From Arenicellales bacterium (GTDB lineage: Bacteria > Pseudomonadota > Gammaproteobacteria > Arenicellales > JAJDZL01): a stretch of DNA of 64,000 nucleotides. The position numbers were made by a program, and so were the translations under genes. The DNA is taken from contig OZ246969.1 in assembly GCA_965232345.1 (NCBI GenBank), forward strand, positions 2,369,613 through 2,433,612, read 5' to 3'. Below the pieces are notes generated by a model that did not search any database, was not told the origin of the DNA, and saw nothing but the letters and a program-made list of their open reading frames with translations. Below are positions 28,529 through 61,178 of the stretch, piece by piece; within the stretch, counting starts at the first letter, position 1; each line of letters begins with the position of its first letter.

Positions 28529-28536
28529 GGCCCGCG

Positions 28537-32426: not shown

Positions 32427-32429
32427 GTG

Positions 32430-33536: not shown

Positions 33537-33607
33537 TTCAACCGTAGCCTCGCTTGCTTTTGCTCAACAGTCAATATCTTGTTCAAGTATAGACGAATCA
33601 GGCGTGC

Positions 33608-40392: not shown

Positions 40393-40395
40393 ATT

Positions 40396-41795: not shown

Positions 41796-41799
41796 CGTT

Positions 41800-42147: not shown

Positions 42148-42149
42148 GG

Positions 42150-42545: not shown

Positions 42546-42546
42546 G

Positions 42547-42768: not shown

Positions 42769-42770
42769 CC

Positions 42771-44722: not shown

Positions 44723-44940
44723 TGCCTGAACAGTCCTGAATTTTCAAACCCGCCCTCGTCGGTTCCATCTTTTTGAGGCAGTTGAAGGACGATGGATGCG
44801 CCTGTTCCCGCTGTCGATCCTTTTTGGAAGTCTCTTCTCGCATTCGATGTGAGCGTTTGAGCGATCCCGCCGAAGATGATGCAACGGTTTTCGCGGCGGT
44901 GTTTCGATGGGCTTGCGCATGGCGGCTCAGATTTTCGCGG

Positions 44941-45417: not shown

Positions 45418-45487
45418 CGCCTTCTGTCAAATACGTTGATCTTTTCCAGAACGCTGATCTGGCTCTGACTCCTGCGCGGCGAATGAA

Positions 45488-46918: not shown

Positions 46919-46920
46919 GA

Positions 46921-47517: not shown

Positions 47518-47545
47518 GATTGAGCTCCGTATTGACAGTGAATGA

Positions 47546-48604
47546 TCAGAATGTTGAGTTTTGAAGAGTGAAAACCACCCGGGCAATGCCGACATATATC
47601 CAGACTGCAGCTGCACCGATGCCGAGCAGGAGGACCGAGGAGAGAGTCTTTGTGGTGCGTTTCAGTTTTGCCAGAGCCCTTTCCAAATCTTCGTCAGCAA
47701 TCCGTTCTGCGTGTGTCGCGAAGTCACCGATGCGCTCGTAAATTCGCAGCGTGTCCAGTGTCTCGGCAGAAAACAGTCCAGTGTCAAGCGCCTGGTCGAC
47801 ACTGTCACCCCGATAAAGATTCGAGCGCATTGTGCGAACGTGCGATGCCAGATACTTGGGAAGACCGCGCTCCAGCTGGCTCAGGGCTTTTATCCGCTGC
47901 ACACCGGCATGCATCAGTGCCAGCAGGGCGCTCAGAATCTCAGGTCCTGAAAACTGCCGGTAGAGCGCGAAGGGGGGATACCAGTCAAACTGCTCCCGCA
48001 AGGGACCTGACCAGCGAGGCGCAGCCCAGACAGAAATCGCAAGAACCGATGCGAGCGCCGCGGCCAGGTACGCGCCCCAAGTGGATACAAAGTTTGAGAA
48101 TGCGAGAACGCTGAGCGACACCATCGGCCATTTGGACTGGTCGAGAACCGCACTCATTGCTGAAAGAGCCTGACCCGGCAGCAGAGCGATGACCAGACTG
48201 CCGCCACACAGCAGCAGGGTGGGATAGGTGAGTCCCGAAATCAGCGTTGATCGCAGCTTCTGCCGGACTGTCGCCATGCGCGCCGCCTGCTCGAAACCCT
48301 CTGCAATCCTGCCTTCCTGAGTGATCTGAATGATCGCCAGCTCCTCCTGCGGCACCCACCCGACTGCGCCTGTGGAGAAGCTGCGGGATCTGATTGCCGC
48401 ACGCTGGTGCATGGCGAAGCGCAACGAAACTGAATTCTCCACTTTGCTTTCACATAGAAACTCCAGGGCTGCAGCGATCGGCACCCCTGAACGGCTGAGC
48501 GAGGCCAGCCGCATCCACAGCCTGGCGCGCGTATGCGCAGATGAGCGAAAGCGCTGCCGGTGCAGATACTGAGCGGTTTGTTCAAACCAGACTGGTGTCA
48601 GCAT
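47546..48604 (-). CDS. pilR: type IV pilus platform membrane protein (GspF/PilC family; R64 PilR-like)
   Basis: 352 aa with a duplicated GspF-like architecture and three TM regions. Follows the ATPase gene. Confidence 0.78.
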   Translation of the reverse strand: MLTPVWFEQTAQYLHRQRFRSSAHTRARLWMRLASLSRSGVPIAAALEFLCESKVENSVSLRFAMHQRAAIRSRSFSTGAVGWVPQEELAIIQITQEGRIAEGFEQAARMATVRQKLRSTLISGLTYPTLLLCGGSLVIALLPGQALSAMSAVLDQSKWPMVSLSVLAFSNFVSTWGAYLAAALASVLAISVWAAPRWSGPLREQFDWYPPFALYRQFSGPEILSALLALMHAGVQRIKALSQLERGLPKYLASHVRTMRSNLYRGDSVDQALDTGLFSAETLDTLRIYERIGDFATHAERIADEDLERALAKLKRTTKTLSSVLLLGIGAAAVWIYVGIARVVFTLQNSTF

Positions 48605-50231
48605 GTGCGGATGTCTCCAAACTCAGGTTTTCGGATGGTGTTCGGTAATTTTCAGGACTTTCATTGGGTGCCGGTTCTGCCGTCAGGGAACCGATCTGCC
48701 ATTCGACATCAGTCGGCGAGACCAGTCCTTTGGCAATCAACCGCGCCCCCTGGCGAATGACGGGACGGCCGTTCAGGTCATTGAGCCAGTGCCGCCGGGC
48801 GCTGTGATAGTCACCTTTGCTCAGCTTGAAGATCATCTCATCATCCGGCAGGACGATTTCTGCCATGACTGTGCGGCCGACAACCCCGCTTCCGCCGCAT
48901 CGTTCGCAATCCTCATCGCCCCGATAGCAGATATCTGAAGCATCAAGTCCGCATGCTTCCACGGCGATTGTTGCCCTTCGCACGCTGTCTTTGCGCCGAT
49001 GGTCGCTGCCTCGGCCTTTTCGGGCCCATAAATCCGAGCTGATCTTGCAGTCCGGACACAGTTTCGGCACCAGAGACTGATACATCAAGCCCTTCAGCAC
49101 ATCGGGCGCGCACAGAAGACTGGTGTTGATGCCAAGGCCGGTCAGCCGTCCCACAATGCCAAGCGCCGTGGACGCGTGAACGGTCGTGTAGACGCGGTGC
49201 CCCGACTGGGCGAATTTGACTGTCAGCAGGGCCGACTGCAGATCGCGGATCTCACCGACCATAAGCGTGTCGGGATCACAGCGCAGAGCGCCGCGGATCG
49301 CAAAGGAGAATTCATCACCGCCGGAAGATCCTTTTCTTCTGATCACCGGCACCTGCGTGGCGCCCGGAATCACACGTTCAGGCGGGTCCTCAACGGTGAT
49401 GATGCGCAGTCGGGAATGATGCATCTCGAGCTCCTCATTCAGCATGCTCACAATCGATGTGCTCTTCCCACTGCCGACGCCACCGGCCATGACAAGCAGA
49501 CCCGAAGGCCGCTGCACCACGGTCTGAATCGCCTGAATCTGTTCAGGTTCGTAGCCCAATTCGTCAAGATGCAGGGTATCCTCGCTGCCTGGCAATATTC
49601 GCAGGACCATGTCATACCCGTCCGGAGATGCGGGAATCGTGCCCACTCGGACTCGCACCCGTCTGCCATTTGCCAGAATCGTATCGGCAACTGCGTCCTG
49701 TGGCTCATGGCGGTTCCAAGTCACTGCCTGGTCGTGCCCCAGCACTTCGTATATGAACCGGCATGTCTGATCGGCCAGCACTTCCGGCCATTCCGCATAA
49801 CGGACGATCTGCCCGCTGATGCGAAAACTGACCAAGGCGGACACTCGACGTCTCACGATGTGAATGTCCGAAGCGTCTTCTGCGACAGCTTTCGCCAGAA
49901 GCACGCGGACAATGTCCTGGCCGCGTTCGAAGTCAAGGTCAGCCGAACGGGGATTGGCAATTCTTTCTGCATCCGCATAGATGTCCTCCAGAATGTTCGG
50001 AGTCACCTCGATCTGATCGATAATCTGTACGTTCTGCCTTTTCAGATTCTCCCGAAGCTGCGCCTTGAGTCGCGCCGGGTACTGCAGCGCTGTAAACAGG
50101 ATGTAGGCGGCTGTCGGCGGCTCATCCTCCGACACAGCCGCATAGAACAAGCGTTCTGACTGGTCGATCGGCACCCACGATTCCGGGCCGCCTGTAAGCA
50201 CCAGTTTGTAGGCGGGCAGATCGGAGTTCAT
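48582..50231 (-). CDS. pilQ: type IV pilus assembly ATPase (GspE/PulE family; R64 PilQ-like)
   Basis: 549 aa. Walker A MAGGVGSGKSTS, Asp box, Walker B LMVGEIRD, His box, and a tetracysteine motif (CPDC...CERCGGSG). Confidence 0.88.
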   Translation of the reverse strand: MNSDLPAYKLVLTGGPESWVPIDQSERLFYAAVSEDEPPTAAYILFTALQYPARLKAQLRENLKRQNVQIIDQIEVTPNILEDIYADAERIANPRSADLDFERGQDIVRVLLAKAVAEDASDIHIVRRRVSALVSFRISGQIVRYAEWPEVLADQTCRFIYEVLGHDQAVTWNRHEPQDAVADTILANGRRVRVRVGTIPASPDGYDMVLRILPGSEDTLHLDELGYEPEQIQAIQTVVQRPSGLLVMAGGVGSGKSTSIVSMLNEELEMHHSRLRIITVEDPPERVIPGATQVPVIRRKGSSGGDEFSFAIRGALRCDPDTLMVGEIRDLQSALLTVKFAQSGHRVYTTVHASTALGIVGRLTGLGINTSLLCAPDVLKGLMYQSLVPKLCPDCKISSDLWARKGRGSDHRRKDSVRRATIAVEACGLDASDICYRGDEDCERCGGSGVVGRTVMAEIVLPDDEMIFKLSKGDYHSARRHWLNDLNGRPVIRQGARLIAKGLVSPTDVEWQIGSLTAEPAPNESPENYRTPSENLSLETSAHADTSLV

Positions 50232-50743
50232 TGCGGATTCACCTTGTCTGTCTGCTGTGGTGTGGAGCGTCCCGATAGTCCGATCGAGATTTCGTGTCCG
50301 GAAACCAGCAGGCGCATGCCGCGCGGATGCACTTCCGTCACCAGCGCCAGGCGAATGGAATCACCGTTCCGCAGCCGATATTCCCTGCCATCGAGGCGCG
50401 CATAAGCTGTCAGGCCGTCGGCGTTTCCGACGATCGCATAAACCTCCAGATTCTGGTCGAACCAGTTGACTCGATCCATGCCGGGATTGGATTCATGCGC
50501 TTCATCCTGAGCGGAAACCTGCGGCGGCGGACTGCTGTGGCTTGAGTGAATCTCAGAAATCTTGGCCACCAGCTGCTGATATTCGAGCACGCGTCGCAGA
50601 ATGTCCTGCTGATTCTGCAGACAGTCCAGCAGCGCGACCGTGCCCGAGCTCGAACTGCAGACGGCAGGAATTTCCGGCATCTGCTGCGCGGGCGCCCAGT
50701 GCGGCAGGACAAGCCACAGGCTCGCGATCGACCTAATCAGCAT
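50228..50743 (-). CDS. PilP-like pilus biogenesis protein
   Basis: Signal-like MLIRSIASLWLVLPHWAPAQQ from the internal Met at 50743. Small, sits between the pilO-like and pilQ-like genes, and its C-terminus is beta-rich. Confidence 0.5.
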   Translation of the reverse strand: MLIRSIASLWLVLPHWAPAQQMPEIPAVCSSSSGTVALLDCLQNQQDILRRVLEYQQLVAKISEIHSSHSSPPPQVSAQDEAHESNPGMDRVNWFDQNLEVYAIVGNADGLTAYARLDGREYRLRNGDSIRLALVTEVHPRGMRLLVSGHEISIGLSGRSTPQQTDKVNPQ

Positions 50744-51992
50744 ACGCAAAGTAATCTCCCTCCAGCTCCCAGCTGAACGAATCCGCCAGCGTGACTTTGA
50801 CTCGAGAGACATGCAGCGGCAGCTCCTTGAGACTGATCGCGGCAGCGATCATTTCATTCAGCTGACTGCTGCCGCCGATCAGCCGCGAGCGTGTGACGGG
50901 ATATCGCTCTCCGAATGGCCGCGCTGGATCAAGCGTCCAATGGCCGGGCAGCTTCGCAAGCTGATCCAGCAGCTGCATGCGCTCAGATTTCTGGTCCAGC
51001 CGTTTCTCAAACTCATCGTCTTCCGACCTGAGCGTCGCGGCGAATGGAATGATTTCGGTCACAATCTTGGCATCGTGACTGAATTCGAACTGACGAGATT
51101 CAAGATATGCGGATATGTCATTGACATCGCCGTGTTCTCGAAGCCATGTCACTGAAATGACATCATCTTGCCATTCGTAAGAATGAGTGCGCCAGCCGCC
51201 GGCGCGCAAAGGGCGATCATAGACTGTATCTGAAAGCGTGGCCAGCAGCAAAGCGGCGTGCTGACTCAGTTGCTGACTCAGAGCGACTCTTTCCTGATCA
51301 AATGTCTTTTGGAAAGCCTGCTGGCGCAGCAGCCGCTGCCGGTCCGCTTCGTCGGCATGATCGATGTATTGCCATGCGCCGACTGCTGAACAGGCCAGCA
51401 GCGCTCCAACCGCAACTCCCAGAACGGGTTTGTTGAGCTTGCGTGTCTGTATGGGACGGCAGGTGATGTCACTTGCCGGAGCGACGCCATCCACCAATTC
51501 TGCGAAGTCCAGATTCAGAGCTCCTTCGATCTCAAATTCGCCGAATTTGTCATAAAGCGGGATGTTCTTTCCTGCGATGTCAGAACGGATCTCTTTCAGT
51601 CTCTCTTCAATGAAGAACTTCTGGCCGATCAGGTCGCCAGCTGGAAAAACCGCCCCGTCTTCGATGGTGCACAGCCAGTACAGATTGGCCGCGAGGCGCT
51701 CGATCAGAACAACGGAGCGCTGAGCCTGAGCGAGATGGGCAGCGCCGCTGTTCAGTCCGAGATCCTCCTTGTCGGGTGTCGCGCCCAACTGGCTGCCGGC
51801 GGGGGTCTCCATTTCAGTGTATCCAACTACGTTCATGTCCAGAGACAGCAGCTCGCGTGTTTTTCGCCGCTCGCGTCCGGTCGGCGACCGCAAGGCAGGA
51901 GCCAGCCAAGTCAGCCCGATCGCCATATCCTGATCACAGAATCGATGAACGGTCACCTTGTCGCCTCCAGATTCTGCGGCCGGAAAAGTCAA
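50733..51992 (-). CDS. PilO-like pilus biogenesis protein
   Basis: 419-aa ORF (alternative start Met at 51926) with a mid-protein TM (VLGVAVGALLACSAVGAW). Position after the secretin gene is as in R64/PAPI-1 clusters. Confidence 0.5.
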   Translation of the reverse strand: MTFPAAESGGDKVTVHRFCDQDMAIGLTWLAPALRSPTGRERRKTRELLSLDMNVVGYTEMETPAGSQLGATPDKEDLGLNSGAAHLAQAQRSVVLIERLAANLYWLCTIEDGAVFPAGDLIGQKFFIEERLKEIRSDIAGKNIPLYDKFGEFEIEGALNLDFAELVDGVAPASDITCRPIQTRKLNKPVLGVAVGALLACSAVGAWQYIDHADEADRQRLLRQQAFQKTFDQERVALSQQLSQHAALLLATLSDTVYDRPLRAGGWRTHSYEWQDDVISVTWLREHGDVNDISAYLESRQFEFSHDAKIVTEIIPFAATLRSEDDEFEKRLDQKSERMQLLDQLAKLPGHWTLDPARPFGERYPVTRSRLIGGSSQLNEMIAAAISLKELPLHVSRVKVTLADSFSWELEGDYFAYAD

Positions 51993-53505
51993 TCGCCGGA
52001 CGAATGATGTGCGGTGTGATCAGAAGCACCAGGCTGGTGCGGGTGGTCTTGATTTTCGAATCCTTGCTGAATAGTGCGTTGCTCTTGGAATCGTCGGTCC
52101 GAAACGTGTCGAGTCCGGCAACGAACAGCAGTTCTCCTGAATTCAGTATGACCGGCAGGAGTGCGGAGCGAGACTCGAGGTTTGGCAGCTGGATGACCGG
52201 GTCCTCCGGTCCGGCATCCTGCGGAAAGCGGCTGATCTCCTTGATGCGGGTTGTTCTTACCGTCAAATTGAGCATGATTCGGTTGCTGTCGGCCAGGATT
52301 CTCGGCAGCATGTTGATTGCGATGCCATCTTGGATCTTGCCCGGCAGAAGACGCACCGCGGTCGTCCCTTCGGTGTTGACCACTTCGCGCCGCTCAAGGT
52401 AGGAGGTTTCGTCACCGAAGAAAATCGGCACTGGAAAACCGTTCAGGCCCCGAATCACTGTCGAGGTCAGTTTCGCGACTCGATTGTCTCCGGCTGACTT
52501 TCGCAGTATCACCTCGAAGTCGCTTGCATCAACGGCTGGAGCGCTGGAATGAGTCAATTGGATGCCAACAAGTCCGCCGGCATCGTCGCTGTCAAAGTTG
52601 ATTTCGGCCGCGCTTTTTCCGAATGCCTCCTTCATGAACCCTCTGAAGTTGAAGCCCGCCGCCGCATTCTCACTTTGATGAATCTCGTAAAGGTCGACAT
52701 TCACCAGAACTTGCGTGGTCAGCTCTTGATTCTTGATCGCGATCCAGTCGGCGATCCGCTGCAGAGCGGCCGGGGTGTCGACCACAGTCACTTCACCTGA
52801 CAGGCGGTTGATATTGAATCTGCCGGCTTGCGTGAGCAGACTGCTCAATGACGTTTCGATCTGCTCCCAGAAGTTCGAGGTGTCCATTGAAACGACAACC
52901 CTGTCCTGCGCCTGCAGATCCGATCCGCTGGAGCCGCTCTGAACTGATCCTGAAAGACCGACTGAAGCCTGCCACTTTGTGTCGACGGTTGGAACCAACA
53001 AGGTCCACAGGCCAAGTTCGGTATGAAAGATCTCGATTCGGTTATGACGGACGCGCCAGCTGTAACCTAAGCGGCCGGTTATGTGATTGAGCGCTTCCCT
53101 GGCAGACCCTTGCCAGTTGATCGCGGGAAGTTCGTCTGTTTCAATGTCGGCCGCGATGGTGATGGGCAAGCCGACTTGAGCGGCGATCTGGCGGGTCAGT
53201 TCATACAGCGTGACAGATTCGACGAATGTCAATTCGATTTTCTGATTGAGTTCTGCCGGTTCCGGATCGGGCGAGTCGATCACTCGAATCGGAGACTGCG
53301 GGCCTATCCACGCCTGCGGGTACTGCTGAACGAAATCTGAATCAGGCGTGCCTGCCTTGACCTGAGACGTTCGAACCAGCTCATTCTCGACTTCGTTGAC
53401 GAACTCTTCGGTCGAGGAACTGATTTCAGTCGGCAGTCGGCAGGCGGAAAGCGACACCGCTATCGCGAAAGCTGCGGACAGCTTGATGGAGCGCTCGATA
53501 TTCAT
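51934..53505 (-). CDS. pilN: type IVb pilus secretin lipoprotein, PilN-like
   Basis: 523 aa. Lipobox AIAVSLSACRLP. C-terminal secretin domain (…IAINMLPRILADSNRIMLNLTVRTTRI…LLFVAGLDTFRTDD…LVLLITPHII). Confidence 0.78.
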   Translation of the reverse strand: MNIERSIKLSAAFAIAVSLSACRLPTEISSSTEEFVNEVENELVRTSQVKAGTPDSDFVQQYPQAWIGPQSPIRVIDSPDPEPAELNQKIELTFVESVTLYELTRQIAAQVGLPITIAADIETDELPAINWQGSAREALNHITGRLGYSWRVRHNRIEIFHTELGLWTLLVPTVDTKWQASVGLSGSVQSGSSGSDLQAQDRVVVSMDTSNFWEQIETSLSSLLTQAGRFNINRLSGEVTVVDTPAALQRIADWIAIKNQELTTQVLVNVDLYEIHQSENAAAGFNFRGFMKEAFGKSAAEINFDSDDAGGLVGIQLTHSSAPAVDASDFEVILRKSAGDNRVAKLTSTVIRGLNGFPVPIFFGDETSYLERREVVNTEGTTAVRLLPGKIQDGIAINMLPRILADSNRIMLNLTVRTTRIKEISRFPQDAGPEDPVIQLPNLESRSALLPVILNSGELLFVAGLDTFRTDDSKSNALFSKDSKIKTTRTSLVLLITPHIIRPAIDFSGRRIWRRQGDRSSIL

Positions 53506-54278
53506 CTTGAGCTGGAGCTTGTGTATGCGTCTGGTTCAATCACAAGAACTGAATTGCCGCTGTAGAACTTGCCGATCAGGGGGACCGGAGCGTTTCGATA
53601 GTGCGCGAGCAGCGAACTGACCGCGTCAACCAGTGTGCCCGAGAAGGCTGAAGACTGCGTGATCGCGTAATCGTGGCGAGTGCGCCATTCCAGCGACCAG
53701 TCAGCCAGCTGTGTCCAGCTTTCCAGATTCTCCCGCAGCGTCATGGAACTTTGCAGCTGCCAGGTCCCCGGACTTGTCAATGCGGAGTCATTGGCAGGGT
53801 CGGCCGCATTGGTTCGAACCTGCGAATTTGAAGCCGCCGCCGGTGACTCAATGACCTCGATCGAATCCGCACCGGCGCGCTGAAACCACAGTATCCGCTG
53901 GCCGACATCCTCGTGCAGCTCCCAAGGCTGTCCGACTATGGTCTTCACCGCGGTTCGCACATCCAGCGGTCCGATCGACCGATGAGTTTCCGGCAGCGGC
54001 ATTGCGAGGGTTTGCTGAATGTCCGCGGTTGCGACATGCCTGAATCCGGATCGGTAGAGAATGTAGTCAATCGCCGTCCCGACTGTTTCGACATACGGTG
54101 GAAACCGCGTTTCGATCACAGCAGACAGCAAATCGACCTGGCTGGATTCGGCCGCCAGCGAGTGCAATGAGTAGCGATTCATGCGCTCCATCTCAACGGC
54201 CGAGGTCGCTTCGCAAGACATTGTCAGCGCGAGCGATCCCAATGTTCGGACCGCAAGATTTGTCCTGAAAATATTCAT
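53502..54278 (-). CDS. pilL: PilL-like conjugative transfer region protein (TIGR03748-like, with a TcpQ-like C-terminus)
   Basis: 258 aa. NRYSLHSLAAESSQVDLLSAVIETRFPPYVETVGTAIDYILYRSGF, and C-terminal TLRENLESWTQLADWSLEW. First gene of the pil cluster. Confidence 0.62.
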   Translation of the reverse strand: MNIFRTNLAVRTLGSLALTMSCEATSAVEMERMNRYSLHSLAAESSQVDLLSAVIETRFPPYVETVGTAIDYILYRSGFRHVATADIQQTLAMPLPETHRSIGPLDVRTAVKTIVGQPWELHEDVGQRILWFQRAGADSIEVIESPAAASNSQVRTNAADPANDSALTSPGTWQLQSSMTLRENLESWTQLADWSLEWRTRHDYAITQSSAFSGTLVDAVSSLLAHYRNAPVPLIGKFYSGNSVLVIEPDAYTSSSSR

Positions 54279-54390
54279 ACGCTGAACTATGCGCTGATTT
54301 GCGGAAAAGTGAAAGGATTAATTTGATATCAGCAGCGGATAATTAATTTTGAGGCCGCGGGCAGGTTGAAGACAGCCTTTCGGACGCTCA

Positions 54391-55302
54391 TCATGCCGGC
54401 GCGGGAATTTTGCTCATGAGATAATTTCGCGCCTTCCAGGCGAGGGCGCTGGATGTGAAAATCGCCTTGGGATCGTTTTCCAGAATCTTTATCCAGTCCA
54501 TGACGTAGGAATCGTGACGCAGCTCGCCGAAAATGTGATAGTCCGCACACAAGAATGCGGACCCAATCTCCGCGATCAGCTCCTCGTACGCATATCCAAC
54601 CGACTTGAATGGAAAGGGATCGACGATGCCGGCCCGATTCAACCTGGACTTATGGCCGGTCCAGTGGGTCAGCTCATGCATGAGGGTGCTGTAGTAGCCG
54701 GCGGTTGACTCGAATGCGGCTTTCGGCGGCATGCAGATGACATCTGATTCGGGAAAATAGGTGGCGACAGTCCCCGCATGCCGCACTTTCGCGCCGCACA
54801 GCTTGATCAGGTCATCGGCGCTGTGATGGGATTCCCAGTTCTGTTCCAGGGTGTGCGTCGGATATCTGCCTTTGGCGACTTTCTCAGGCAGGCCGACGCA
54901 CTGCTCCACATTGAACAATGTGAATGCGCGGGCGATTTTGTAGGGCTGCGCTTTCGGCTGCTCTTCATTTTCGTCATCTTCCAGTTTGCTGGCGACTTCG
55001 ATTTTCTTGAACAGCACAGCGACTGAGCCTTTTTCCCCTTTGCGAATCCGGCCGCCAAGCTTGGAAGCCTGGCGAAAGGACAGCCAGCGGTCGTACTCGT
55101 AGCCGCGGGCGATGGCAGATGCCCAGAGAATGGTGACATTGATTCCTGTGTATCGACGTTCAGTTACCGCATTGACTGGGTACCCCGGCACGGGACAGCA
55201 TTCTGACCAGGGCTTCCGCCATGGCGGTGCGCCGTTTTTCAGCGCGTCGATAAATACTTTTGTAACTTTTGTGAAAACACTTTGAGATTTTTCGTTGGTC
55301 AT
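54391..55302 (-). CDS. ArdC-like antirestriction protein (N-terminal ssDNA-binding domain plus zincin metalloprotease domain)
   Basis: 303 aa. N-terminus ...GAPPWRKPW...NAVTERRYTGINVTILW and C-terminal HELTHWTGH (HExxH). Confidence 0.8.
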   Translation of the reverse strand: MTNEKSQSVFTKVTKVFIDALKNGAPPWRKPWSECCPVPGYPVNAVTERRYTGINVTILWASAIARGYEYDRWLSFRQASKLGGRIRKGEKGSVAVLFKKIEVASKLEDDENEEQPKAQPYKIARAFTLFNVEQCVGLPEKVAKGRYPTHTLEQNWESHHSADDLIKLCGAKVRHAGTVATYFPESDVICMPPKAAFESTAGYYSTLMHELTHWTGHKSRLNRAGIVDPFPFKSVGYAYEELIAEIGSAFLCADYHIFGELRHDSYVMDWIKILENDPKAIFTSSALAWKARNYLMSKIPAPA

Positions 55303-55427
55303 CGTTCCAGAATGAAAATGAAATTGGAACGAAAGTTAACTGATTCTGCAGTGAGTTCAAACAAAAAACATGGAATTCAACCTGACAGGTTTTTTCGCGC
55401 GGCATTTGATCAGCGACATTGCGTCGG

Positions 55428-56774
55428 CTAATTTTGCTTCGAGTCGTCTGCCGCGGATGCGTCGGAGTCGGACCCCGAATCCAAAGCTTGTTCCAGAATG
55501 CGCTGGCGGTATCGTCGCTCAGTTTCGCTGAAATTCTTTTGAGTGTCATTTGCCGCCGCACGCTGCTCGAAAATTCTCTCGGCGTTTTCAATCTGAAACT
55601 GGCCGTCCTCCCTGAGACCGATTCCATGCTGTGTGAGCCGCTTGCAGTAGGTGGACATCAGTGAGACTGGATTCCAGACCGGCGCGCATCGGTTCGCCAA
55701 TCCCGCCTTGATCCGGCCATCCAATTCATCGAGCAGAAGCTGATGCCATGAGTCCCATGGTTTCGGAGGTTCTGGCAGACTCGCGGGCAGCCGTTTCAGG
55801 TTAAGAACGATCAGATGTTTCTGATTGTCGCTCACGGACTCTGGGAACACCAGGTTCGGCTCAAGTTCCAGCAGTTCTTTTTCAGTTGCATCGTTGTAGT
55901 AATTGCTTTTTTTCACTTCCTTACTACCAGTAGGTACTACAGAGTCTGATCGAACTGATGATTTGGACTGGTCTTTTGCTAAGTTGCTGATATCACCGTA
56001 GTTCATCTCGTGAACTGCGGTGATATTCTTGTCGTTGTGATGAGCGCGATGGACTGAGTCGCCGGTTTGATCTCCGATGTCCTCCAATTCGGGGTAAGTG
56101 CCGAAGTAGCTGATTTCAGCATCGCCTTCCAGAGCCATCCAGGCATCTGCCCGCCGTTCGAAGGGGTGTTTGTATTCCATCACATTCCGCCCCGAGCCGA
56201 TCTCATGCCGCAGTGAACTCAGGATCAGCTCAGCAATCTTGCGAACATCGGAATTTCGATGCTTCCTGCTGTCGTTCACAAATCCCATGTAATTGGAATC
56301 AAGTTCGAACGTATCGGTCAATGCCAAGGGTTCACCGTGAACCATGTAAATATTGCCATCTCTTGTGAACTGACCCGACTCATTGCGTTCCTGATCCCGG
56401 CAGAGCAGGGTGATCCAGCGGGTCAGGCGCAGTTTTGCTATGGAGCTTGAAACGGTGCCGCGCGAGATGTTGAGCATGGATTGAATCTCGTCGTAGCTGG
56501 GAAATGAGGCGAGCGACATGTCGGGTGTGCATCGAGACCGGATTGCAAGCCAAACCAGCTTGTCGTACGGATTGAGCACCGGGTCGAAGATCAGCAGCCG
56601 GGGATGTGAGTCGTACCAGTTGTCCGTGAAAATCATTCCGTGCGAGACGCTCTCGCCTCTTCGGAAATTCTTTGCCGCAGACAGGATTCTCGACAGGTTT
56701 CGCTTTATGGATTTGGGTTCAGAATAATCAGCCATGAATCTCGCACCGGGTGAATGGAAATTGGCAGCTCTCAC
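55428..56774 (-). CDS. STY4528-family-like pathogenicity-island protein with wHTH
   Basis: 448 aa. HGMIFTDNWYDSHPRLLIFDPVLNPYDKLVWLAIR...SFPSYDEIQSMLNISRGTVSSSIAKLRLTRWITLL resembles the SPI-7/PAPI-1 STY4528 family N-terminus (from memory). Confidence 0.58.
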   Translation of the reverse strand: MRAANFHSPGARFMADYSEPKSIKRNLSRILSAAKNFRRGESVSHGMIFTDNWYDSHPRLLIFDPVLNPYDKLVWLAIRSRCTPDMSLASFPSYDEIQSMLNISRGTVSSSIAKLRLTRWITLLCRDQERNESGQFTRDGNIYMVHGEPLALTDTFELDSNYMGFVNDSRKHRNSDVRKIAELILSSLRHEIGSGRNVMEYKHPFERRADAWMALEGDAEISYFGTYPELEDIGDQTGDSVHRAHHNDKNITAVHEMNYGDISNLAKDQSKSSVRSDSVVPTGSKEVKKSNYYNDATEKELLELEPNLVFPESVSDNQKHLIVLNLKRLPASLPEPPKPWDSWHQLLLDELDGRIKAGLANRCAPVWNPVSLMSTYCKRLTQHGIGLREDGQFQIENAERIFEQRAAANDTQKNFSETERRYRQRILEQALDSGSDSDASAADDSKQN

Positions 56775-56838
56775 CTCTTACCGCCGCTGGAACTGCGTTG
56801 CAGCCACCGGCGGTGCGAGATTCATTCGACTCCGCGTT

Positions 56839-57420
56839 CTATGCGCTTCGCAGCTGTTTGAGCGAGCCGTCATTCTCCCACTCCTGAATCAGACTCCAGA
56901 TGACCCGGAGCGACACCTCCCGCTTCAGTGACTTGAAGATATCCAAAAACTCTCCAGGCCCGAAGCTGGTGGACTCCTTCAGCGACTTCTCCACCGCTTT
57001 CCAAACCGACTTCTCAACTTCCATTGACGGCTGTATCGGCCGTCCCGGGGCCAGCTCCGACAATCCGAACTGACATCTTCTGAGCTTGAATTGAGTCCGG
57101 GTCATGCCGGTGAGCGAGCGCATCAGCTGCGGCGGAGCGTCGCAGCAGATGAGTTCGTTGATCATGCTCTCCCTGGTGTTCTCCCGAATGACATAATCAA
57201 TCATTCGCCAGAAGATCTTTCGATTCAGATTGATCGACAGAAAATGCGATTTTGTCGATGCCAGGCGCAGTGCATCCGTAGTTGACAGCGTGCTGAGCGC
57301 CCGCACTTCGCTGGGCCCGAACCCCATTTCATACAGAGCGTTGTAGTCACCCTCTTCCTCGCAGCGGTGAAAGAAAAGCACGATTGATCTGATTAGTTCA
57401 GTTTCTTTGCTGATAGACAT
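56839..57420 (-). CDS. DUF2857-like ICE protein
   Basis: 193 aa. Sits directly downstream of the ParB-like gene, as in SPI-7/PAPI-1-type islands. Call made by position and size only. Confidence 0.42.
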   Translation of the reverse strand: MSISKETELIRSIVLFFHRCEEEGDYNALYEMGFGPSEVRALSTLSTTDALRLASTKSHFLSINLNRKIFWRMIDYVIRENTRESMINELICCDAPPQLMRSLTGMTRTQFKLRRCQFGLSELAPGRPIQPSMEVEKSVWKAVEKSLKESTSFGPGEFLDIFKSLKREVSLRVIWSLIQEWENDGSLKQLRSA

Positions 57421-59112
57421 TTATTTACCTCCAGTGTCAGACAAACGAAACAAATGCAGATTGTGCTCGTTTGCCAAATGATGCAGATTTCGATAGGACT
57501 CTGTCAGAGTTTGAATACTGGCCCAGCTCTCGTCATCCAGTTGGCGCAGACAGAAGCCAATCAGGCCGATATGGGGAAATGTACACTTCATTTTTCCCTT
57601 TGCGTGAGAAATTAGTGATTTCGGATCGCCCGATTTAATGAAGTGAAGCAGATCCGTCTTTCCGATCAGTTTTGCGGTGGCGGGACGGGCGCATTCAGTC
57701 GCCCATTGCAGATCGCAGAACTCCACCAGCAGCCACCACAGCGCTTCTCGAGTTGCCGCGGCAGTCGGATTGAGCAGCTCGACCGGGGGCGGGTAGTCAC
57801 AAACGATATAGCCAATCCCCCAATCCCCTGTATTCACAATGATGCGTTTCTTGTTTGACGGATTGACCAGAAAGCTGTGCTGCTTTCCGATTTGTGAGGC
57901 CGCGGCATACGCGTTGCCCCTGAGCGTCGACAGCTTCAGTTCAAGTTCCGAGCGCTGCGGCGGCTTGGCAGATCTGCGCGGTTTCTGGCTTTGAGAATCG
58001 GAATTTTCTGAGTCGCTCTGTTTGGGCGGGTTGACGCCCAGAGTGATGGATTTGAACTCAGGCAGTTTGCCGTAGGGACGCTTCAGCTTGCCTTCAGCTT
58101 TTGCGCTTTTCAGCAGATCACTGGAGTTGATCGGCAGTTTGGGGTGGGCAGCTTCGTGTTTTTGAGCTTGCTCAAACTGTTCCAGTTCCGGGAGAATCTG
58201 TTCGAATGACTCGTGAAGCGGTGTCGATGAGAAACTCAGGTATCCATCAATGCGCAATGAGACATCCTGTATGGAGGTTGACACTTCCTTTGCCAGATTG
58301 GCTTCCAGTGAACGGCGAAAAAACTCCTTGTCCCATTCCGCCTCCGGGTAGCCAATCAGCGCCTGTTGAAATAATTTTCTTGACTGTGCGGCTGTCTTGT
58401 CAAACTCTTTGCAGACATCGCGGAAGGCATTCTGCAGTTTTCGCACACTTAGAATTGACCTGCGTCCCATTGATTCACAAGTGGTCGACGATAAGTTGGG
58501 CTCAATCATCTCAACCGCGTAGAGCATGATCGAAAGAGAGCTCAACGTAACGCTGTATCCTCTTTCGATAAGCTTCTGATGAGAGTGGCGAACTGACGAT
58601 GTCTCTTCATCTTCAGATTCGGTCTGCAGATGATCGATGGCGGCCTTGATGCCGACTGCCTTGTCAATGAAGCACAACGATTTCCGCAGCTCGTTTTCCT
58701 GCAGATGACCAATAATGGCATCAGATTCATAGCCGGACCAGGGCATGAAGGAGCACTCGACAAAACGGAACTTGTAGTCACCTGTTTCCTCAAACAGTTC
58801 TTTGATCGCTTGCAGTCTGGTGTTGCCGCCTTTGTACACAATGAAATTCTGATGGCCCGGACGACGGGTGATGACGATCGGTTGGATCAGTCCGTTCCGG
58901 GCGATGGATTGCTTGATCTTCTGGTAGTTGGGATTCGCGCGTCGCCGCGGGTTGTTCTCATAGGGTTGGATGCTTGAGATTGGCAGGGTGATCAGCGCTC
59001 GATCAGTCAGTGATTCAAAAATGTCCACATCACTTGTTTGACCAGATTTTTCATTGGTAGACTGTGCATTTTCGCCGTGTTCGGGCAATGGGCGTTTCTT
59101 CATGGTTGGCAC
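57421..59112 (-). CDS. ParB-like nuclease-domain protein (ICE PFGI-1-class ParB-like)
   Basis: 563 aa. N-terminal ParB/Srx box: PISSIQPYENNPRRRANPNYQKIKQSIARNGLIQPIVITRRPG...YKGGNTRLQA. Confidence 0.8.
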   Translation of the reverse strand: MPTMKKRPLPEHGENAQSTNEKSGQTSDVDIFESLTDRALITLPISSIQPYENNPRRRANPNYQKIKQSIARNGLIQPIVITRRPGHQNFIVYKGGNTRLQAIKELFEETGDYKFRFVECSFMPWSGYESDAIIGHLQENELRKSLCFIDKAVGIKAAIDHLQTESEDEETSSVRHSHQKLIERGYSVTLSSLSIMLYAVEMIEPNLSSTTCESMGRRSILSVRKLQNAFRDVCKEFDKTAAQSRKLFQQALIGYPEAEWDKEFFRRSLEANLAKEVSTSIQDVSLRIDGYLSFSSTPLHESFEQILPELEQFEQAQKHEAAHPKLPINSSDLLKSAKAEGKLKRPYGKLPEFKSITLGVNPPKQSDSENSDSQSQKPRRSAKPPQRSELELKLSTLRGNAYAAASQIGKQHSFLVNPSNKKRIIVNTGDWGIGYIVCDYPPPVELLNPTAAATREALWWLLVEFCDLQWATECARPATAKLIGKTDLLHFIKSGDPKSLISHAKGKMKCTFPHIGLIGFCLRQLDDESWASIQTLTESYRNLHHLANEHNLHLFRLSDTGGK

Positions 59113-59308
59113 CTCTCAGTTGAACAAAAAGACAAGCGACGAAACAAGAATCGACTCTTGCTTGCCGACTGCTGGTGAAAAATTCGACTCGCGGTTCGAT
59201 TTCGGCCCCTGACGCCCAAAATTGATGGGCCGCGAGTGGATATGACGCGCCTTGAGCAACGCATTCTCGGAGGAGACAAGGGCGCGAGGTCGCAGAAGGA
59301 CCGAATTT

Positions 59309-59397
59309 CGCGTGCACCAGTCCGGTAGACTAAATTAGTCTTTTTTGGAGTGTTTACCGGGTAAACACTCCAAAAATGGACAAATTTGGTGCACGCG
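59309..59397. repeat. nested inverted repeats in the non-coding right arm of the element
   Basis: Read directly. Outer arms: CGCGTGCACCA (59309-59319) / TGGTGCACGCG (59387-59397). Inner palindrome: TTTTTGGAGTGTTTACC-G-GGTAAACACTCCAAAAA (59342-59376, 17-bp arms). A further GACTAA-A-TTAGTC lies at 59328-59340. Confidence 0.7.
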
Positions 59398-59709
59398 AGC
59401 CCTCCATTTCGTCGATTCGGTACATTTTTGCTGAAAAAGTGGTCTACTTTGATCATGGGAGGTGTCGTCGTTGTCAAGCCGGGTGAGAGTTGCATTGTGT
59501 CAGAGTGGCGCTGCTGCTCAACTTATGGGATCAAACAATTTGAATGGGGAAGATCGCGCGCTGTTCCCCGCAACGAAGCCGAATGAATTCGCGTATAATC
59601 TGGATATCCCAAGTGTGCTTCTTGGCGCGCGGACCGCAGTTGCGGGTACGGCCATCTTCGTGATTTCAGCCTTGTTTCCATCCATATTCAATGAGGGTCT
59701 GTGATCACT

Positions 59710-59731
59710 AAAAAAATCTGAGTCCTAATCA
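59710..59731. repeat. right copy of the 22-bp direct repeat (putative attR core)
   Basis: Exact copy of 24409-24430. Here it forms A7-TCTGA / GTCCTAA / TCAG-T7 with the adjoining host-side sequence. Confidence 0.85.
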
Positions 59732-60011
59732 GTTTTTTTGGAAGTGCCCCCTGTTTTTTCGGCGCTGTGCCGTCCAATAAAATCCCTTTTTTTCGCATCA
59801 CTGCAACTAAAATGTAGTGAGCCGATCTCCTCACTGCGTCACTCTTGACTGAATCGCTTCGCAACCGGTTCGAAGCAGGTGGAGATGGGATCAGAACAGG
59901 CGAGAAGCCTGAAAGAGCGTGAATTTGATTTTCAGCTTGCCGGCGCGCAGACAAACTCGGCTAAAGCGAATACTCGGTTTGCTTGTTGCGGCGCACGGCT
60001 AGATATTCGGC

Positions 60012-61178
60012 ATGAGAGATATCCGGCAAAAGACCAAGGCAGTCCGAGCAGGGCAGGTCCGAACCCCAGAACGGGAGCACAGCGATCCGATATTCGCGAC
60101 TTCCAGCTTTGTGTTCGGCAGCGCGGAGCACGCGGCCCGGATGTTTGCCGAGACCGAAATCGGCAATGTCTATTCCAGGTTCACCAACCCCACAACACGG
60201 GCCTTCGAAGAGCGGCTTGCCAGTTTGGAAAACGCCCGCTTCTGCAGCGGCACCGCATCTGGAATGTCAGCGATTCTGGCGCTCTGCATGACCGTTCTTC
60301 GCTCTGGCGACAAGATTGCCGCGACCAGGGGCTTGTTCGGCTCCACGGTCAATCTTTTCGGCAATATTCTGACGCGGTTCGGCATTCAGCCAAGTTTTTA
60401 CTCTCCGAGTGAGATCTGCTCCATGCCGCTGGATCCTGAAACCCGGATGATCTTTATCGAAAGTCCATCGAATCCGCTCTGCGAGATCGTGGACATCGCT
60501 CGACTGGCGCAGGTCAGCAAATCGCTTTCGGACTGCATTCTGGTCGTGGACAACTGTGCTTGCACACCTTTCCTGCAGCAGCCGCTTGAGCTCGGCGCAG
60601 ATGTGGTCATTCACTCCGCCACAAAATTTCTGGACGGGCAGGGTCGGGCGGTTGGCGGCGCTGTCGCCACCAATGATGAGGATTTGGCCAAAGGCATCGT
60701 AGGATTCCTGCGAACTGCCGGTCCTTCGATGAGTCCGTTCAACGCCTGGATTTTTCATAAAGGTCTTGAGACCCTTTCGGTTCGAATGAAGGAATCATGC
60801 GCAAACGCGGCGCAGATTGCGAGCTGGCTGCAGGAACATCCGAAAGTTGCCAGAGTGCATTACCCGGGACTGACAGACCATCCGGGGCATGAGCTTGCCG
60901 CTCGCCAACAGAGTGATTTCGGCGCGTTGCTATCGTTTGAGGTGAAAGGCGGGAAGGCGGCCGCTTGGAATTTGATCGATCATGTGGAGATATTTTCTGT
61001 GACCGCGAATTTGGGAGATGTGAAGAGCACGATCACCCACCCTGCGTCGACCACTCATTCGAGAGTGCAGGCATCTGATCGAAGGCGGATGAGAATCAGT
61101 GATGGACTGATTCGGCTTTCAATCGGCTTGGAAGATGTTCGGGATCTGATCGAAGACCTGCAGTTCGCCATGGATTAA
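60012..61178 (+). CDS. metZ: O-succinylhomoserine sulfhydrylase
   Basis: 388 aa. AVRAGQVRTPEREHSDPIFATSSFVF, GNVYSRFTNPTTRAFEERLA, and the PLP-Lys motif HSATKFLDGQGR. Reads as MetZ rather than MetB/MetC. Confidence 0.86.
   Translation: MRDIRQKTKAVRAGQVRTPEREHSDPIFATSSFVFGSAEHAARMFAETEIGNVYSRFTNPTTRAFEERLASLENARFCSGTASGMSAILALCMTVLRSGDKIAATRGLFGSTVNLFGNILTRFGIQPSFYSPSEICSMPLDPETRMIFIESPSNPLCEIVDIARLAQVSKSLSDCILVVDNCACTPFLQQPLELGADVVIHSATKFLDGQGRAVGGAVATNDEDLAKGIVGFLRTAGPSMSPFNAWIFHKGLETLSVRMKESCANAAQIASWLQEHPKVARVHYPGLTDHPGHELAARQQSDFGALLSFEVKGGKAAAWNLIDHVEIFSVTANLGDVKSTITHPASTTHSRVQASDRRRMRISDGLIRLSIGLEDVRDLIEDLQFAMD

What the first reader, a model, noticed from the sequence alone, without database searches (positions are those of the whole stretch)
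59706..59744. Integration site is not a tRNA: the reconstructed attB is a 39-bp A/T-rich near-palindrome with a 7-bp central spacer
Joining the host-side flanks gives CTTCAAAAAAATCTGA-GTCCTAA-TCAGTTTTTTTGGAAG (host left arm 24405-24420, spacer 24421-27, host right arm 59729-59744). The two 16-nt arms are complementary at 14/16 positions around a 7-bp spacer. That is the classical core-site geometry for a tyrosine recombinase. PAPI-1- and ICEclc-type elements normally target tRNA-Lys or tRNA-Gly 3' ends. I found no tRNA-like T-arm or acceptor sequence in 24005-24870 or 59112-60011. The site lies about 280 nt upstream of metZ and about 490 nt upstream of the sixA-ppx operon, so insertion splits a divergent promoter region.
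Basis: partly seen in the sequence, partly recalled or inferred. Interest (0 to 1): 0.6.

Follow-up and report, generated by a model that had tools for sequence, protein, structure and literature searches.

The report
ICE attachment site mimics anticodon arm
A 35-kb island derived from a conjugative element lies between two exact 22-bp repeats in a non-tRNA intergenic spot, and the small palindrome it uses as its insertion site looks like a lone tRNA anticodon stem-loop, which is a modest twist on how such elements normally insert.

Summary
An exact 22-bp direct repeat (24409-24430 and 59710-59731) brackets a 35.3-kb island of the ICEHin1056/PAPI-1/PFGI-1 type, between sixA-ppx and metZ. ARAGORN and Rfam find no tRNA, tmRNA or known RNA at either junction.

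The rebuilt attB is a significant near-palindrome: arms of the form A-run-YCTGA / TCAGK-T-run around a 7-bp spacer. Seven related genomes carry the same island at the same locus. All keep a YTGA-GKCYYAA-TCA core inside otherwise unalignable DNA. Their repeats are perfect but species-specific (19, 22 and 26 bp), and compensating changes preserve the inverted arms. In one species, a strain polymorphism breaks exactly at the core.

- More distant homologues of the full-length integrase sit next to tRNA-Thr, Lys or Met genes, or next to tRNA fragments that end in the anticodon stem. The site matches their anticodon arm (ACTGA-CTTGTAA-TCAGT), so it looks like an anticodon-arm mimic.
- The second "recombinase" is a protein of about 200 aa with only the catalytic domain.
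- The island has no detectable relaxase or coupling protein.

No truly empty site was found. This is a new variant of a known kind, of modest interest.

The parts
24409..24430 (+). Left copy of the 22-bp direct repeat, within attL.
   Evidence: Exact repeat. Sequence read.
24405..24443 (+). attL core. It consists of the host arm B (CTTCAAAAAAATCTGA), the spacer GTCCTAA (24421-24427) and the element arm C' (TCATATCTTATACTGT).
   Evidence: The same layout is seen in relatives L006, L095 and L096.
59710..59731 (+). Right copy of the 22-bp direct repeat, within attR.
59706..59744 (+). attR core, which is the finding's interval. It consists of the element arm C (CACTAAAAAAATCTGA), the spacer GTCCTAA (59722-59728) and the host arm B' (TCAGTTTTTTTGGAAG). 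It is a near-palindrome and matches the rebuilt attB except for its first 4 nt.
   Evidence: It is conserved upstream of metZ in L002-L005 and L010-L014.
25801..26763 (-). Int2, a full-length tyrosine integrase. The gene call in the source genome is 308 aa, so the start is probably near 26727. It is the likely att recombinase.
   Evidence: - Pfam Phage_integrase, 1.7e-24.
- The catalytic residues R, K, H, R, H and Y are invariant in the family alignment A2.
- It is 30.6% identical to the ICEHin1056 integrase, E = 4e-28.
- More distant relatives sit next to tRNA genes.
25183..25797 (+). Int1, a 204-aa tyrosine recombinase with only the catalytic domain. It is convergent with Int2 and lies between Int2 and attL. 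The mechanical ORF runs back to 24871.
   Evidence: - Pfam and NCBIfam hits cover only residues 120-300 of the long ORF.
- Orthologues are called at 197-205 aa.
- tblastn aligns 192 aa.
- The family alignment A4 keeps R..K..KxxRH..H..Y.
- The best PDB match is the XerA catalytic domain.
24431..59709 (-). Body of the island. It contains:
- TraG_N (26987-28552) and TIGR03755 (28537-30021).
- Cargo genes: M20 peptidase, aminotransferase, ABC ATPase and TerC (29917-34210).
- TraU (34413-35465) and the TraC/VirB4-like gene (35878-38721).
- Other MPF_G genes (38.7-44.0 kb).
- A type IVb pilus cluster (44.9-54.3 kb).
- ArdC (54391-55302).
- An STY4528-family replication protein (55428-56774).
- DUF2857 (56839-57420).
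- A ParB-like gene (57421-59112).

No relaxase, coupling protein or ParA was detected.
   Evidence: Pfam and NCBIfam scans. The layout is syntenic in L006, L095 and L096.
21877..24005 (-). Left host flank: the SixA-like gene (23403-24005) and ppx (21877-23406).
   Evidence: The same genes flank attL in L006, L095 and L096.
60012..61178 (+). Right host flank: metZ (O-succinylhomoserine sulfhydrylase).
   Evidence: The island's end lies directly upstream of metZ in L002-L005 and in L010, L013 and L014.

Best explanation
**What it is.** The interval is attR of a 35.3-kb ICE-derived island of the ICEHin1056/PAPI-1/PFGI-1 class. The island is integrated by tyrosine-recombinase site-specific recombination into an intergenic site between sixA-ppx and metZ.

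**How it works.** The target (attB) is a simple core site. Two inverted arms (...AAAYCTGA / TCAGKTTT...) bind the integrase, and a 7-bp asymmetric overlap (GTCCTAA here) is where the strands are exchanged. The 22-bp repeat is the stretch shared by attP and attB: the left arm, the overlap and 3 bp of the right arm.

**Which enzyme.** The enzyme is most probably Int2 (25801-26763). Int2's wider family integrates into tRNA genes at the anticodon loop. This site is not a tRNA gene, but it copies the sequence and geometry of a tRNA-Thr/Lys anticodon stem-loop: a CTGA/TCAG stem, a 7-nt loop of the form xTxxTAA, and the same orientation relative to the integrase. The lineage therefore seems to have moved from a tRNA gene to a free-standing anticodon-arm look-alike.

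**Shown versus inferred.**
- Shown: the repeats, the absence of an RNA gene, conservation and covariation of the core, the breakpoint at the core, and tRNA adjacency in relatives.
- Inferred: the cleavage positions, Int2 as the catalyst, present-day activity, and the evolutionary direction of the switch.
For: 1. The repeat is exact, 22 bp, and not expected by chance. The tyrosine recombinases lie directly inside attL.
2. The same island sits between sixA-ppx and metZ in related genomes whose metZ is 69-81% identical. The spacing between the two att spacers is 35.3, 35.4 and 37.1 kb in three species (my arithmetic on the coordinates).
3. The core YTGA-GKCYYAA-TCA is the only conserved block between the island and the metZ leader.
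4. Within each of three genomes the two repeat copies are identical but species-specific:
   - 22 bp with spacer GTCCTAA.
   - 19 bp with spacer GTCTTAA.
   - 26 bp with spacer GTCCCAA.
5. The inverted arms are kept by changes on both sides at +-5 (C:G versus A:T) and +-7 (A:T versus C:G). In total 83% of cells pair, against 30-56% when the partner is slid. Hairpin z-scores are -2.9 and -4.1.
6. In the species with 74% metZ identity, contigs with and without the ParA/ParB end of the island diverge exactly at AAGCCAA|CTGAGGCTTAATCAG.
7. Int2 relatives at 30-42% identity in metagenomes lie 66-521 bp from a tRNA gene or tRNA fragment in at least 22 loci.
   - Thr(UGU/CGU) and Lys(UUU) account for 9 of the 16 full tRNAs. 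Their anticodon arms read ACTGA-CTTGTAA-TCAGT and TCTGA-CTTTTAA-TCAGG.
   - L017 has a 3' fragment ending at ...CTGATTACAAGTCA|A. L022 and L023 keep only the 5' half, the loop and TGA.
   - The boundary therefore falls 3 nt beyond the loop, as it does at the window's repeat (TCA|).
8. Int2 is about 30% identical to the ICEHin1056 integrase.
9. Precedent: a 19-bp anticodon-loop segment alone suffices as attB for ICEAfe1, and integrase subfamilies use symmetric anticodon-loop sublocations (bioRxiv 10.1101/2020.11.02.365908, discussion).
Against: - No empty attB and no attP junction was recovered, so the reconstruction is logical rather than observed.
- The cleavage points are not mapped. The overlap could lie elsewhere within the 19 bp (-9 to +3) shared by all three repeat pairs.
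- The left arm outside the spacer is identical in attL (host-derived) and attR (element-derived), and it changes in step between species: TCTGA, CCTGA, TTTGA. Exchange confined to a 7-bp overlap does not homogenise that arm. The host right arm does not track these changes in two of the three species.
- The repeat extends towards what would be the tRNA 5' side. In tRNA-targeting relatives it extends towards the 3' side.
- For the tRNA-adjacent relatives, the second repeat copy was never found inside the fetched loci. Their crossover sublocation is inferred from fragment boundaries only.
- The island has no detectable relaxase or coupling protein, so current mobility is uncertain.
Confidence: 0.75

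Rival explanations
1. The core is the last remnant of a real tRNA-Thr/Lys gene that once lay between sixA and metZ. That gene was the ancestral target, and everything except the anticodon arm has decayed.
For: - The core resembles Thr/Lys anticodon arms, and the integrase family targets tRNA genes.
- In a distant relative, a tRNA-Thr-linked element with a 36%-identical integrase appears to share its 18,364-bp contig with a metZ homologue. This rests on matching contig lengths for P0048 and P0162.
- L022 and L023 show a tRNA-Thr target whose 3' half is no longer recognisable.
Against: - Outside the 4-nt stems, the flanks of 11 att copies match tRNA-Thr only at chance level: 2-11 of 27 on the 5' side and 6-12 of 34 on the 3' side.
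- ARAGORN finds nothing in the window or in the 15 loci L002-L008, L010-L014 and L095-L097 (L010-L014 and L095-L096 were not scanned but show no tRNA-like flanks).
- Loop position 32 is G, which is atypical for a tRNA.
Confidence: 0.1
2. The palindrome is mainly a host element, such as an operator, a bidirectional terminator or a structured DNA/RNA hairpin in the sixA/metZ control region. The island merely uses it, and its conservation reflects the host function.
For: - The palindrome belongs to attB and attR, not to attP.
- It sits at a fixed distance (about 270-360 bp) upstream of metZ in all species.
- Covariation fits a hairpin as well as it fits symmetric protein binding.
Against: - The terminator scan does not call it. 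The stem has only 2 G-C pairs, and no gene converges on it.
- No Rfam family matches it.
- The spacer and left arm are duplicated at the far end of the island, and the strain polymorphism breaks exactly there. Together these point to recombination.
- No island-free genome is available to test whether the core is conserved on its own.
Confidence: 0.12
3. The att recombination is carried out by Int1, or by an Int1+Int2 hetero-complex like XerC/XerD, rather than by Int2 alone.
For: - Int1 lies between Int2 and attL in every island of the non-tRNA clade examined: the window, L006, L095 and L096.
- It is absent between the integrase and the tRNA in the tRNA-targeting relatives.
- It keeps a catalytic R-K-(K)-R-H-Y set and is more conserved than Int2: 68-79% against 61-66% identity.
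Against: - Int1 lacks the N-terminal core-binding domain.
- Its family has more than 2,000 members, against 51 for Int2. By matching contig lengths, some lie on contigs with no listed Int2 homologue.
- All four arms share one consensus (TCA-R-N-TTTT), which argues against two binding specificities.
- Int2-type enzymes work without Int1 at tRNA sites that have the same core.
Confidence: 0.15
4. The island is a fixed, vertically inherited fossil. The repeats mark an ancient insertion and no longer function.
For: - The island is at the same locus in all relatives down to 69% metZ identity.
- Island proteins have diverged about as much as host proteins: 51-91% against 78-81%.
- No relaxase or coupling protein is present, and the window's copy also lacks ParA.
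- Truncated variants exist: L007, L011 and L012.
Against: - The repeats are perfect (22/22, 19/19, 26/26) and species-specific, although the surrounding intergenic DNA is unalignable. This needs selection or repeated recombination.
- The Int2 catalytic residues are intact.
- A presence/absence polymorphism breaks at the core within one species.
Confidence: 0.2
5. The site is a dif-like Xer site and the island is an IMEX that exploits the host XerCD.
For: The recombinases score weakly against XerC, XerD and XerA models.
Against: - All scores are far below the curated cut-offs: 60-84 bits against 220-335.
- There is no dif-like sequence in the window.
- The site has a 7-bp spacer and different arms.
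- The element encodes its own integrase of the ICEHin1056 type.
Confidence: 0.01

Closest known systems
ICEHin1056 / PAPI-1 / pKLC102 / ICEclc / PFGI-1 / SPI-7 family (MPF_G ICEs)
   Same: - The same T4SS gene set: TIGR03752, TIGR03755 and TIGR03759 families, TraC-, TraU- and TraG_N-like genes, DUF2895, DUF3438, DUF3487 and RAQPRD.
- A type IVb pilus cluster.
- ParB-like, DUF2857 and STY4528 replication genes at the end opposite the integrase.
- An integrase about 30% identical to that of ICEHin1056.
- Short direct repeats at both ends.
   Different: - The target is intergenic, not a tRNA gene. 75% of MPF_G ICEs flank a tRNA (PMC5587801), and PAPI-1 uses tRNA-Lys (PMC2704930).
- It is only 35 kb, against a median of 80 kb (PMC5587801).
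- No MOBH relaxase, coupling protein or ParA was detected.
- It has an extra recombinase of about 200 aa next to the integrase.
Anticodon-loop sublocation of tRNA-targeting integrases (for example ICEAfe1, whose 19-bp anticodon-loop segment suffices as attB)
   Same: - A 7-nt asymmetric centre flanked by a symmetric 4-5-bp stem.
- The identity boundary falls 3 nt beyond the loop.
- The orientation relative to the integrase is the same.
- Homologous integrases use real tRNA-Thr, Lys and Met genes (bioRxiv 10.1101/2020.11.02.365908).
   Different: - There is no tRNA gene around the arm.
- The shared attP/attB segment extends to the '5' side' instead of restoring a 3' half.
- The arms are lengthened by A and T runs.
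Lambda-type simple attB core (B-O-B') for tyrosine recombinases
   Same: - Inverted core-type half-sites around a 7-bp overlap that is identical in the two partners.
- attP is less symmetric than attB.
   Different: - No arm-type repeats, excisionase or IHF sites were identified.
- The cleavage positions are not mapped.

Membership tests
MPF_G (ICEHin1056/PAPI-1/PFGI-1-class) ICE | MPF_G type IV secretion genes, including a VirB4/TraC-like ATPase | tested here: met
   The following were found: TraC_F_IV, TraU, TraG_N, TIGR03752, TIGR03755, TIGR03759, DUF2895, DUF3438, DUF3487 and RAQPRD.
MPF_G (ICEHin1056/PAPI-1/PFGI-1-class) ICE | Integrase at one end and direct repeats at both ends | tested here: met
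   Int2 lies inside attL, and the 22-bp repeat is exact.
MPF_G (ICEHin1056/PAPI-1/PFGI-1-class) ICE | Relaxase (MOBH) and type IV coupling protein, which are needed for self-transfer | tested here: not met
   No Pfam or NCBIfam hit was found in any ORF of 300 aa or more. The only unassigned large ORF is 493 aa and lies inside the pilus cluster. ICEHin1056 has mobH next to its integrase.
MPF_G (ICEHin1056/PAPI-1/PFGI-1-class) ICE | Partition and replication module (ParA/Soj, ParB, replication protein) at the end opposite the integrase | tested here: inconclusive
   ParB-like, DUF2857 and STY4528 genes are present. ParA is absent in the window but present in L010, L013 and L014.
tRNA/tmRNA-gene (tDNA) island | An intact tRNA or tmRNA gene at one junction and its displaced fragment at the other | tested here: not met
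   ARAGORN finds no gene. Rfam finds nothing. The flanks match tRNA-Thr at chance level.
Tyrosine-recombinase core att site | Inverted half-sites around a 6-8-bp overlap that is identical in attL and attR | tested here: met
   The arms pair at 14 of 16 positions. The spacer is identical in both copies in 3 of 3 genomes. Covariation supports the arms.
Tyrosine-recombinase core att site | Staggered cleavage at the spacer boundaries by the cognate enzyme | not testable with these tools
   This needs biochemical mapping.
Anticodon-loop sublocation class | Crossover in a 7-nt loop between symmetric stems, used by homologous integrases | tested here: inconclusive
   The geometry and sequence match. 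The relatives' tRNA fragments end in the anticodon stem. No relative gave both repeat copies.
dif / IMEX | A 28-bp dif-like site recombined by the host XerCD | tested here: not met
   There is no dif-like match. Xer model scores are far below the cut-offs.
Intrinsic terminator | A G+C-rich stem followed by a T run, downstream of a gene | tested here: not met
   The scan does not call it. The stem has only 2 G-C pairs, and the flanking genes diverge from the site.

The most novel reading that the evidence does not exclude
A lineage of ICEHin1056-type elements escaped its dependence on tRNA genes by adopting a free-standing mimic of the anticodon arm. It then lost its relaxase and coupling protein and has co-diverged with its hosts across genus-to-family distances. 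Throughout, attL and attR have stayed perfectly matched and have changed in step between species. On this reading the island is a domesticated T4SS/pilus island that still excises in a programmed way, possibly helped by the conserved mini-recombinase Int1 and possibly through a folded hairpin form of the site. Excision would then switch the sixA-ppx/metZ control region.
Probability: 0.12. Interest if true: 0.6.

Novelty: new variant of a known kind. Interest (0 to 1): 0.35.

Why it matters
The site shows concretely how an integrase family that normally needs tRNA genes can move to a non-tRNA target. The recombinase reads only the anticodon stem-loop geometry, so a 15-20-bp look-alike is enough. 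That helps island-finding software, which relies on tRNA genes and misses such sites. It also provides a short natural attB (about 39 bp) with three natural spacer variants that could be tested as orthogonal landing pads.

The side observations raise a separate question: whether this is still a mobile element or a domesticated secretion and pilus island. Those observations are a relaxase-less 35-kb island held at one locus across many species, att copies that co-evolve, and a very widespread 195-aa recombinase family.

Non-tRNA targets are not rare among ICEs in general. About a quarter of MPF_G ICEs lack a flanking tRNA. The surprise for a specialist is therefore moderate.

Tried and rejected
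- **20-mer scan of representative genomes.** An exact 20-mer from the repeat gave one hit, in a Flavobacteriales MAG. It lies inside a 2,141-aa ORF and has no right arm, so it is a chance match.
- **Exact-protein look-ups for the source genome.** Look-ups of metZ, sixA and P0001 returned nothing.
- **Search for an empty site.** All seven relative genomes that I could open carry the island or a remnant of it. The nearest thing to an empty site is the L011/L012 allele, which lacks the ParA-to-TraU part and breaks at the core.
- **Second repeat copies in the tRNA-adjacent relatives.** None was found within the fetched loci.
- **Decayed tRNA around the core.** Rejected, because the flanks match at chance level.
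- **dif/Xer site.** Rejected.
- **Terminator or known RNA family.** Rejected.
- **Arm-type repeats or an invertible segment near Int1.** Nothing is conserved there.
- **The ORF convergent with the ICEHin1056 integrase as an Int1 homologue.** No similarity was found.
- **Transposon target-site duplication.** Rejected. The repeat is 19-26 bp and conserved in sequence, the element has no transposase, and tyrosine recombinases lie next to the repeat.
Full report
**Observation**

AAAAAAATCTGAGTCCTAATCA occurs exactly twice, at 24409-24430 and 59710-59731, 35,301 bp apart. No further copy appears with up to 3 mismatches, and none appeared in 100 shuffles.

Joining the outer flanks gives CTTCAAAAAAATCTGA-GTCCTAA-TCAGTTTTTTTGGAAG. 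Its arms are complementary at 14 of 16 positions. As single-stranded DNA it folds better than 199 of 200 shuffles (z = -2.9).

ARAGORN finds no tRNA or tmRNA anywhere in the window. Rfam finds nothing relevant at either junction at E<=10 and nothing at gathering threshold in the whole window.

**What lies between the repeats**

Pfam and NCBIfam scans identify an island of the ICEHin1056/PAPI-1/PFGI-1/SPI-7 class. Reading from right to left:
- A ParB-like protein, DUF2857, an STY4528-family replication protein and ArdC.
- A type IVb pilus cluster.
- The MPF_G secretion genes: TIGR03759, RAQPRD, DUF2976, DUF3487, DUF2895, DUF3438, TIGR03752, TraC, DUF1525 and TraU.
- A cargo block: TerC, an ABC ATPase, an aminotransferase and an M20 peptidase.
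- TIGR03755 and TraG_N.
- Two convergent tyrosine recombinases just inside attL.

No relaxase, coupling protein or ParA was detected. The only large unassigned ORF (493 aa) lies inside the pilus cluster. The host flanks are a SixA-like phosphatase plus Ppx on the left and metZ on the right.

**The two recombinases differ**

Int2 (25801-26763, called at 308 aa in the source genome) is a full-length integrase.
- Its catalytic residues R, K, H, R, H and Y are invariant in the family alignment.
- It is 30.6% identical to the integrase of ICEHin1056 (E = 4e-28), which lies next to that element's MobH relaxase.

Int1 is really about 204 aa (25183-25797). The longer mechanical ORF is an artefact of the 70% G+C.
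- Database hits cover only the catalytic domain.
- Orthologues are called at 197-205 aa on the opposite strand to Int2.
- It belongs to a very large and strongly conserved family of about 195-aa proteins: more than 2,000 homologues at 58-80% identity, with an invariant R..K..KGLRH..H..Y pattern.

**Comparative evidence for the att site**

The closest metZ homologues (69-81% identity) come from unnamed, long-read-assembled gammaproteobacterial genomes. Seven relative genomes across five metZ clusters and one Int2-anchored locus were opened. In every one, the same island or a remnant of it lies directly upstream of metZ or directly beside sixA-ppx.

Between the island and a conserved metZ leader, the intergenic DNA cannot be aligned except for one block, AAA-YYTGA-GKCYYAA-TCAG-KT.

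Both junctions were recovered in three genomes. In each, the repeats are perfect but specific to the species:

| Genome | Repeat | Length | Spacer |
|---|---|---|---|
| window | AAAAAAATCTGAGTCCTAATCA | 22 bp | GTCCTAA |
| L006/L003 | AAAACCTGAGTCTTAATCA | 19 bp | GTCTTAA |
| L095/L002 | AAAATTTGAGTCCCAATCAGTTTTTC | 26 bp | GTCCCAA |

The spacer is always identical in the two copies, as an overlap region must be. The inverted arms are kept by changes on both sides: position +-5 is C:G or A:T, and position +-7 is A:T or C:G. Overall 83% of cells pair, against 30-56% when the partner is slid. With only six sequences, 15-28 of 500 shuffles reach the observed values.

The rebuilt attB of L006/L003 folds with z = -4.1. 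The rebuilt attP sequences are not palindromic.

In the species with 74% metZ identity, some contigs carry the ParA/ParB end of the island and others carry only TerC-ABC-aminotransferase plus 1.8 kb of non-coding DNA. The two kinds are 99% identical to the right of the core and unrelated to the left. The break falls at AAGCCAA|CTGAGGCTTAATCAG. This is the nearest thing to direct evidence that recombination happens at the core.

**The site looks like an anticodon arm**

A metagenome scan with the Int2 family alignment returned relatives at 30-42% identity. In at least 22 of these loci, a tRNA gene or tRNA fragment lies 66-521 bp beyond the integrase gene. Most of the remaining contigs end too soon to tell.
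- The full genes are Thr(UGU), Thr(CGU), Lys(UUU), Met, Leu, Gly and Pro.
- Thr and Lys make up 9 of the 16 full genes. Their anticodon arms read ACTGA-CTTGTAA-TCAGT, ACTGA-TTCGTAA-TCAGT and TCTGA-CTTTTAA-TCAGG.
- On the window's + strand the site reads TCTGA-GTCCTAA-TCAGT. It has the same stem, T at loop position 2, TAA at the 3' end of the loop, and the same orientation relative to the integrase.

The fragment boundaries agree with this picture.
- L017 carries only a tRNA-Thr 3' fragment, which stops 3 nt past the loop (...CTGATTACAAGTCA|A).
- L022 and L023 keep only the 5' half, the loop and TGA.
- L018, L021 and L042 have fragments that begin at the anticodon stem.
- The window's repeat also stops 3 nt past the spacer (TCA|).

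Outside the 4-nt stems, the flanks of 11 att copies match tRNA-Thr only at chance level. The site is therefore an isolated look-alike, not a recognisable decayed gene.

Published work supports the logic. Integrase subfamilies use the symmetric anticodon-loop sublocation, and 19 bp around the anticodon loop suffice as attB for ICEAfe1 (bioRxiv 10.1101/2020.11.02.365908). PAPI-1 uses tRNA-Lys (PMC2704930). In one survey, 75% of MPF_G ICEs flank a tRNA (PMC5587801), so a non-tRNA target is a minority state but not unprecedented.

**Mechanism I commit to (confidence about 0.75)**

Int2 binds four core-type half-sites with the consensus TCA-R-N-TTTT and exchanges strands across the 7-bp spacer. The 22-bp repeat is the part shared by attP and attB. 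The lineage moved from a tRNA anticodon arm to this mimic.

The following steps are inferred rather than shown:
- the cleavage positions;
- Int2 as the catalyst;
- present-day activity;
- the direction of the evolutionary switch.

**Unexplained points**

- The left arm outside the spacer is identical in attL (host DNA) and attR (element DNA), and it differs between species: TCTGA, CCTGA, TTTGA. Exchange limited to 7 bp cannot homogenise it. The host right arm does not follow these changes in two species, so co-evolution with the integrase is not a full answer.
- The role of Int1 is unknown.
- The island has no relaxase or coupling protein, yet it keeps intact genes and perfect att sites while diverging roughly in step with its hosts. 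Island proteins are 51-91% identical, host proteins 78-81%.

**Verdict**

The main addition is that the site mimics a tRNA anticodon arm. The main gap is that no empty site was found. This is a new variant of a known kind, and the interest is modest (0.35).

Noticed in passing
window 25000-32000: A patch of about 7 kb has roughly 70% G+C, against about 55% in the rest of the island and host. It covers Int1, Int2, TraG_N, TIGR03755, the M20 peptidase and part of the aminotransferase. The orthologous module in relative L006 has 44-53% G+C, like its host, although the proteins are 66-72% identical. This looks like a segment imported from a high-G+C relative of the island. The att-proximal 450 bp are not affected.
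   Followed up: partly
window 59917-59967 (also L002-L005 and L012, about 45-95 nt upstream of metZ): A block GCGTGAATTTGATTTTCAGCTTGCCGGCGCG...GGCTAAAGCGAA is almost invariant in six species, while the rest of the intergenic region is unalignable. It has no Rfam match at E<=10 or at gathering threshold. The consensus fold shows little covariation. It may be a Met/SAM-responsive leader of metZ.
   Followed up: partly
window 24431-59709: The island has no detectable MOBH relaxase, type IV coupling protein or ParA. Even so, its 35-37-kb layout, including the TerC/ABC/aminotransferase/M20 cargo, is conserved in species whose metZ is only 69-81% identical. A ParA (CbiA, 266 aa) is present next to att in L010, L013 and L014.
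   Followed up: partly
window 25183-25797 (+): Int1 belongs to a family of about 195-aa tyrosine recombinases that have only the catalytic domain. The family has more than 2,000 members at 58-80% identity, including hits labelled Chloroflexota and Acidiferrobacterales. In all members the first His of the HxxR motif is replaced by Lys (PKGLRH). I did not find a characterised member.
   Followed up: partly
window 59342-59376: A perfect 17+17-nt palindrome, TTTTTGGAGTGTTTACC-G-GGTAAACACTCCAAAAA, lies between the ParB-like gene and attR, inside a 131-aa ORF with no family hit. Its core recurs six times at regular spacing in the same position in L002 and once in L004. It could be a parS-like or iteron site, and it suggests that the ORFs called there are not real genes.
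   Followed up: partly
L007 1-2500; L011/L012 1-4640: Relatives carry deletion variants of the island. L007 has an IS605-family OrfB and a BenE gene in place of everything beyond the last 24 codons of TraU. L011 and L012 keep only the cargo side, plus 1.8 kb of repeat-rich non-coding DNA that contains an inverted fragment of the STY4528 gene.
   Followed up: partly
attL/attR of window, L006/L003 and L095/L002: Positions -4 and -5 of the left arm lie outside the proposed 7-bp overlap. They are identical in the host-derived and element-derived copies within each genome, but they differ between species: TC, CC, TT. Simple exchange within the spacer does not explain this.
   Followed up: no
L029 3540-6118; L041 6886-9102: In two metagenome contigs an Int2-like gene is followed directly by a ParB-like gene. 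In L041 a full tRNA-Thr lies between them. This is the arrangement expected for a circular or tandem form of a related element.
   Followed up: no
window 19979-21316 and 62322-63356: A Fic-domain protein lies just left of ppx, and an IS5-type DDE transposase lies 1.1 kb beyond metZ. A local G+C dip occurs at 20-22 kb and another at 61-62 kb.
   Followed up: no
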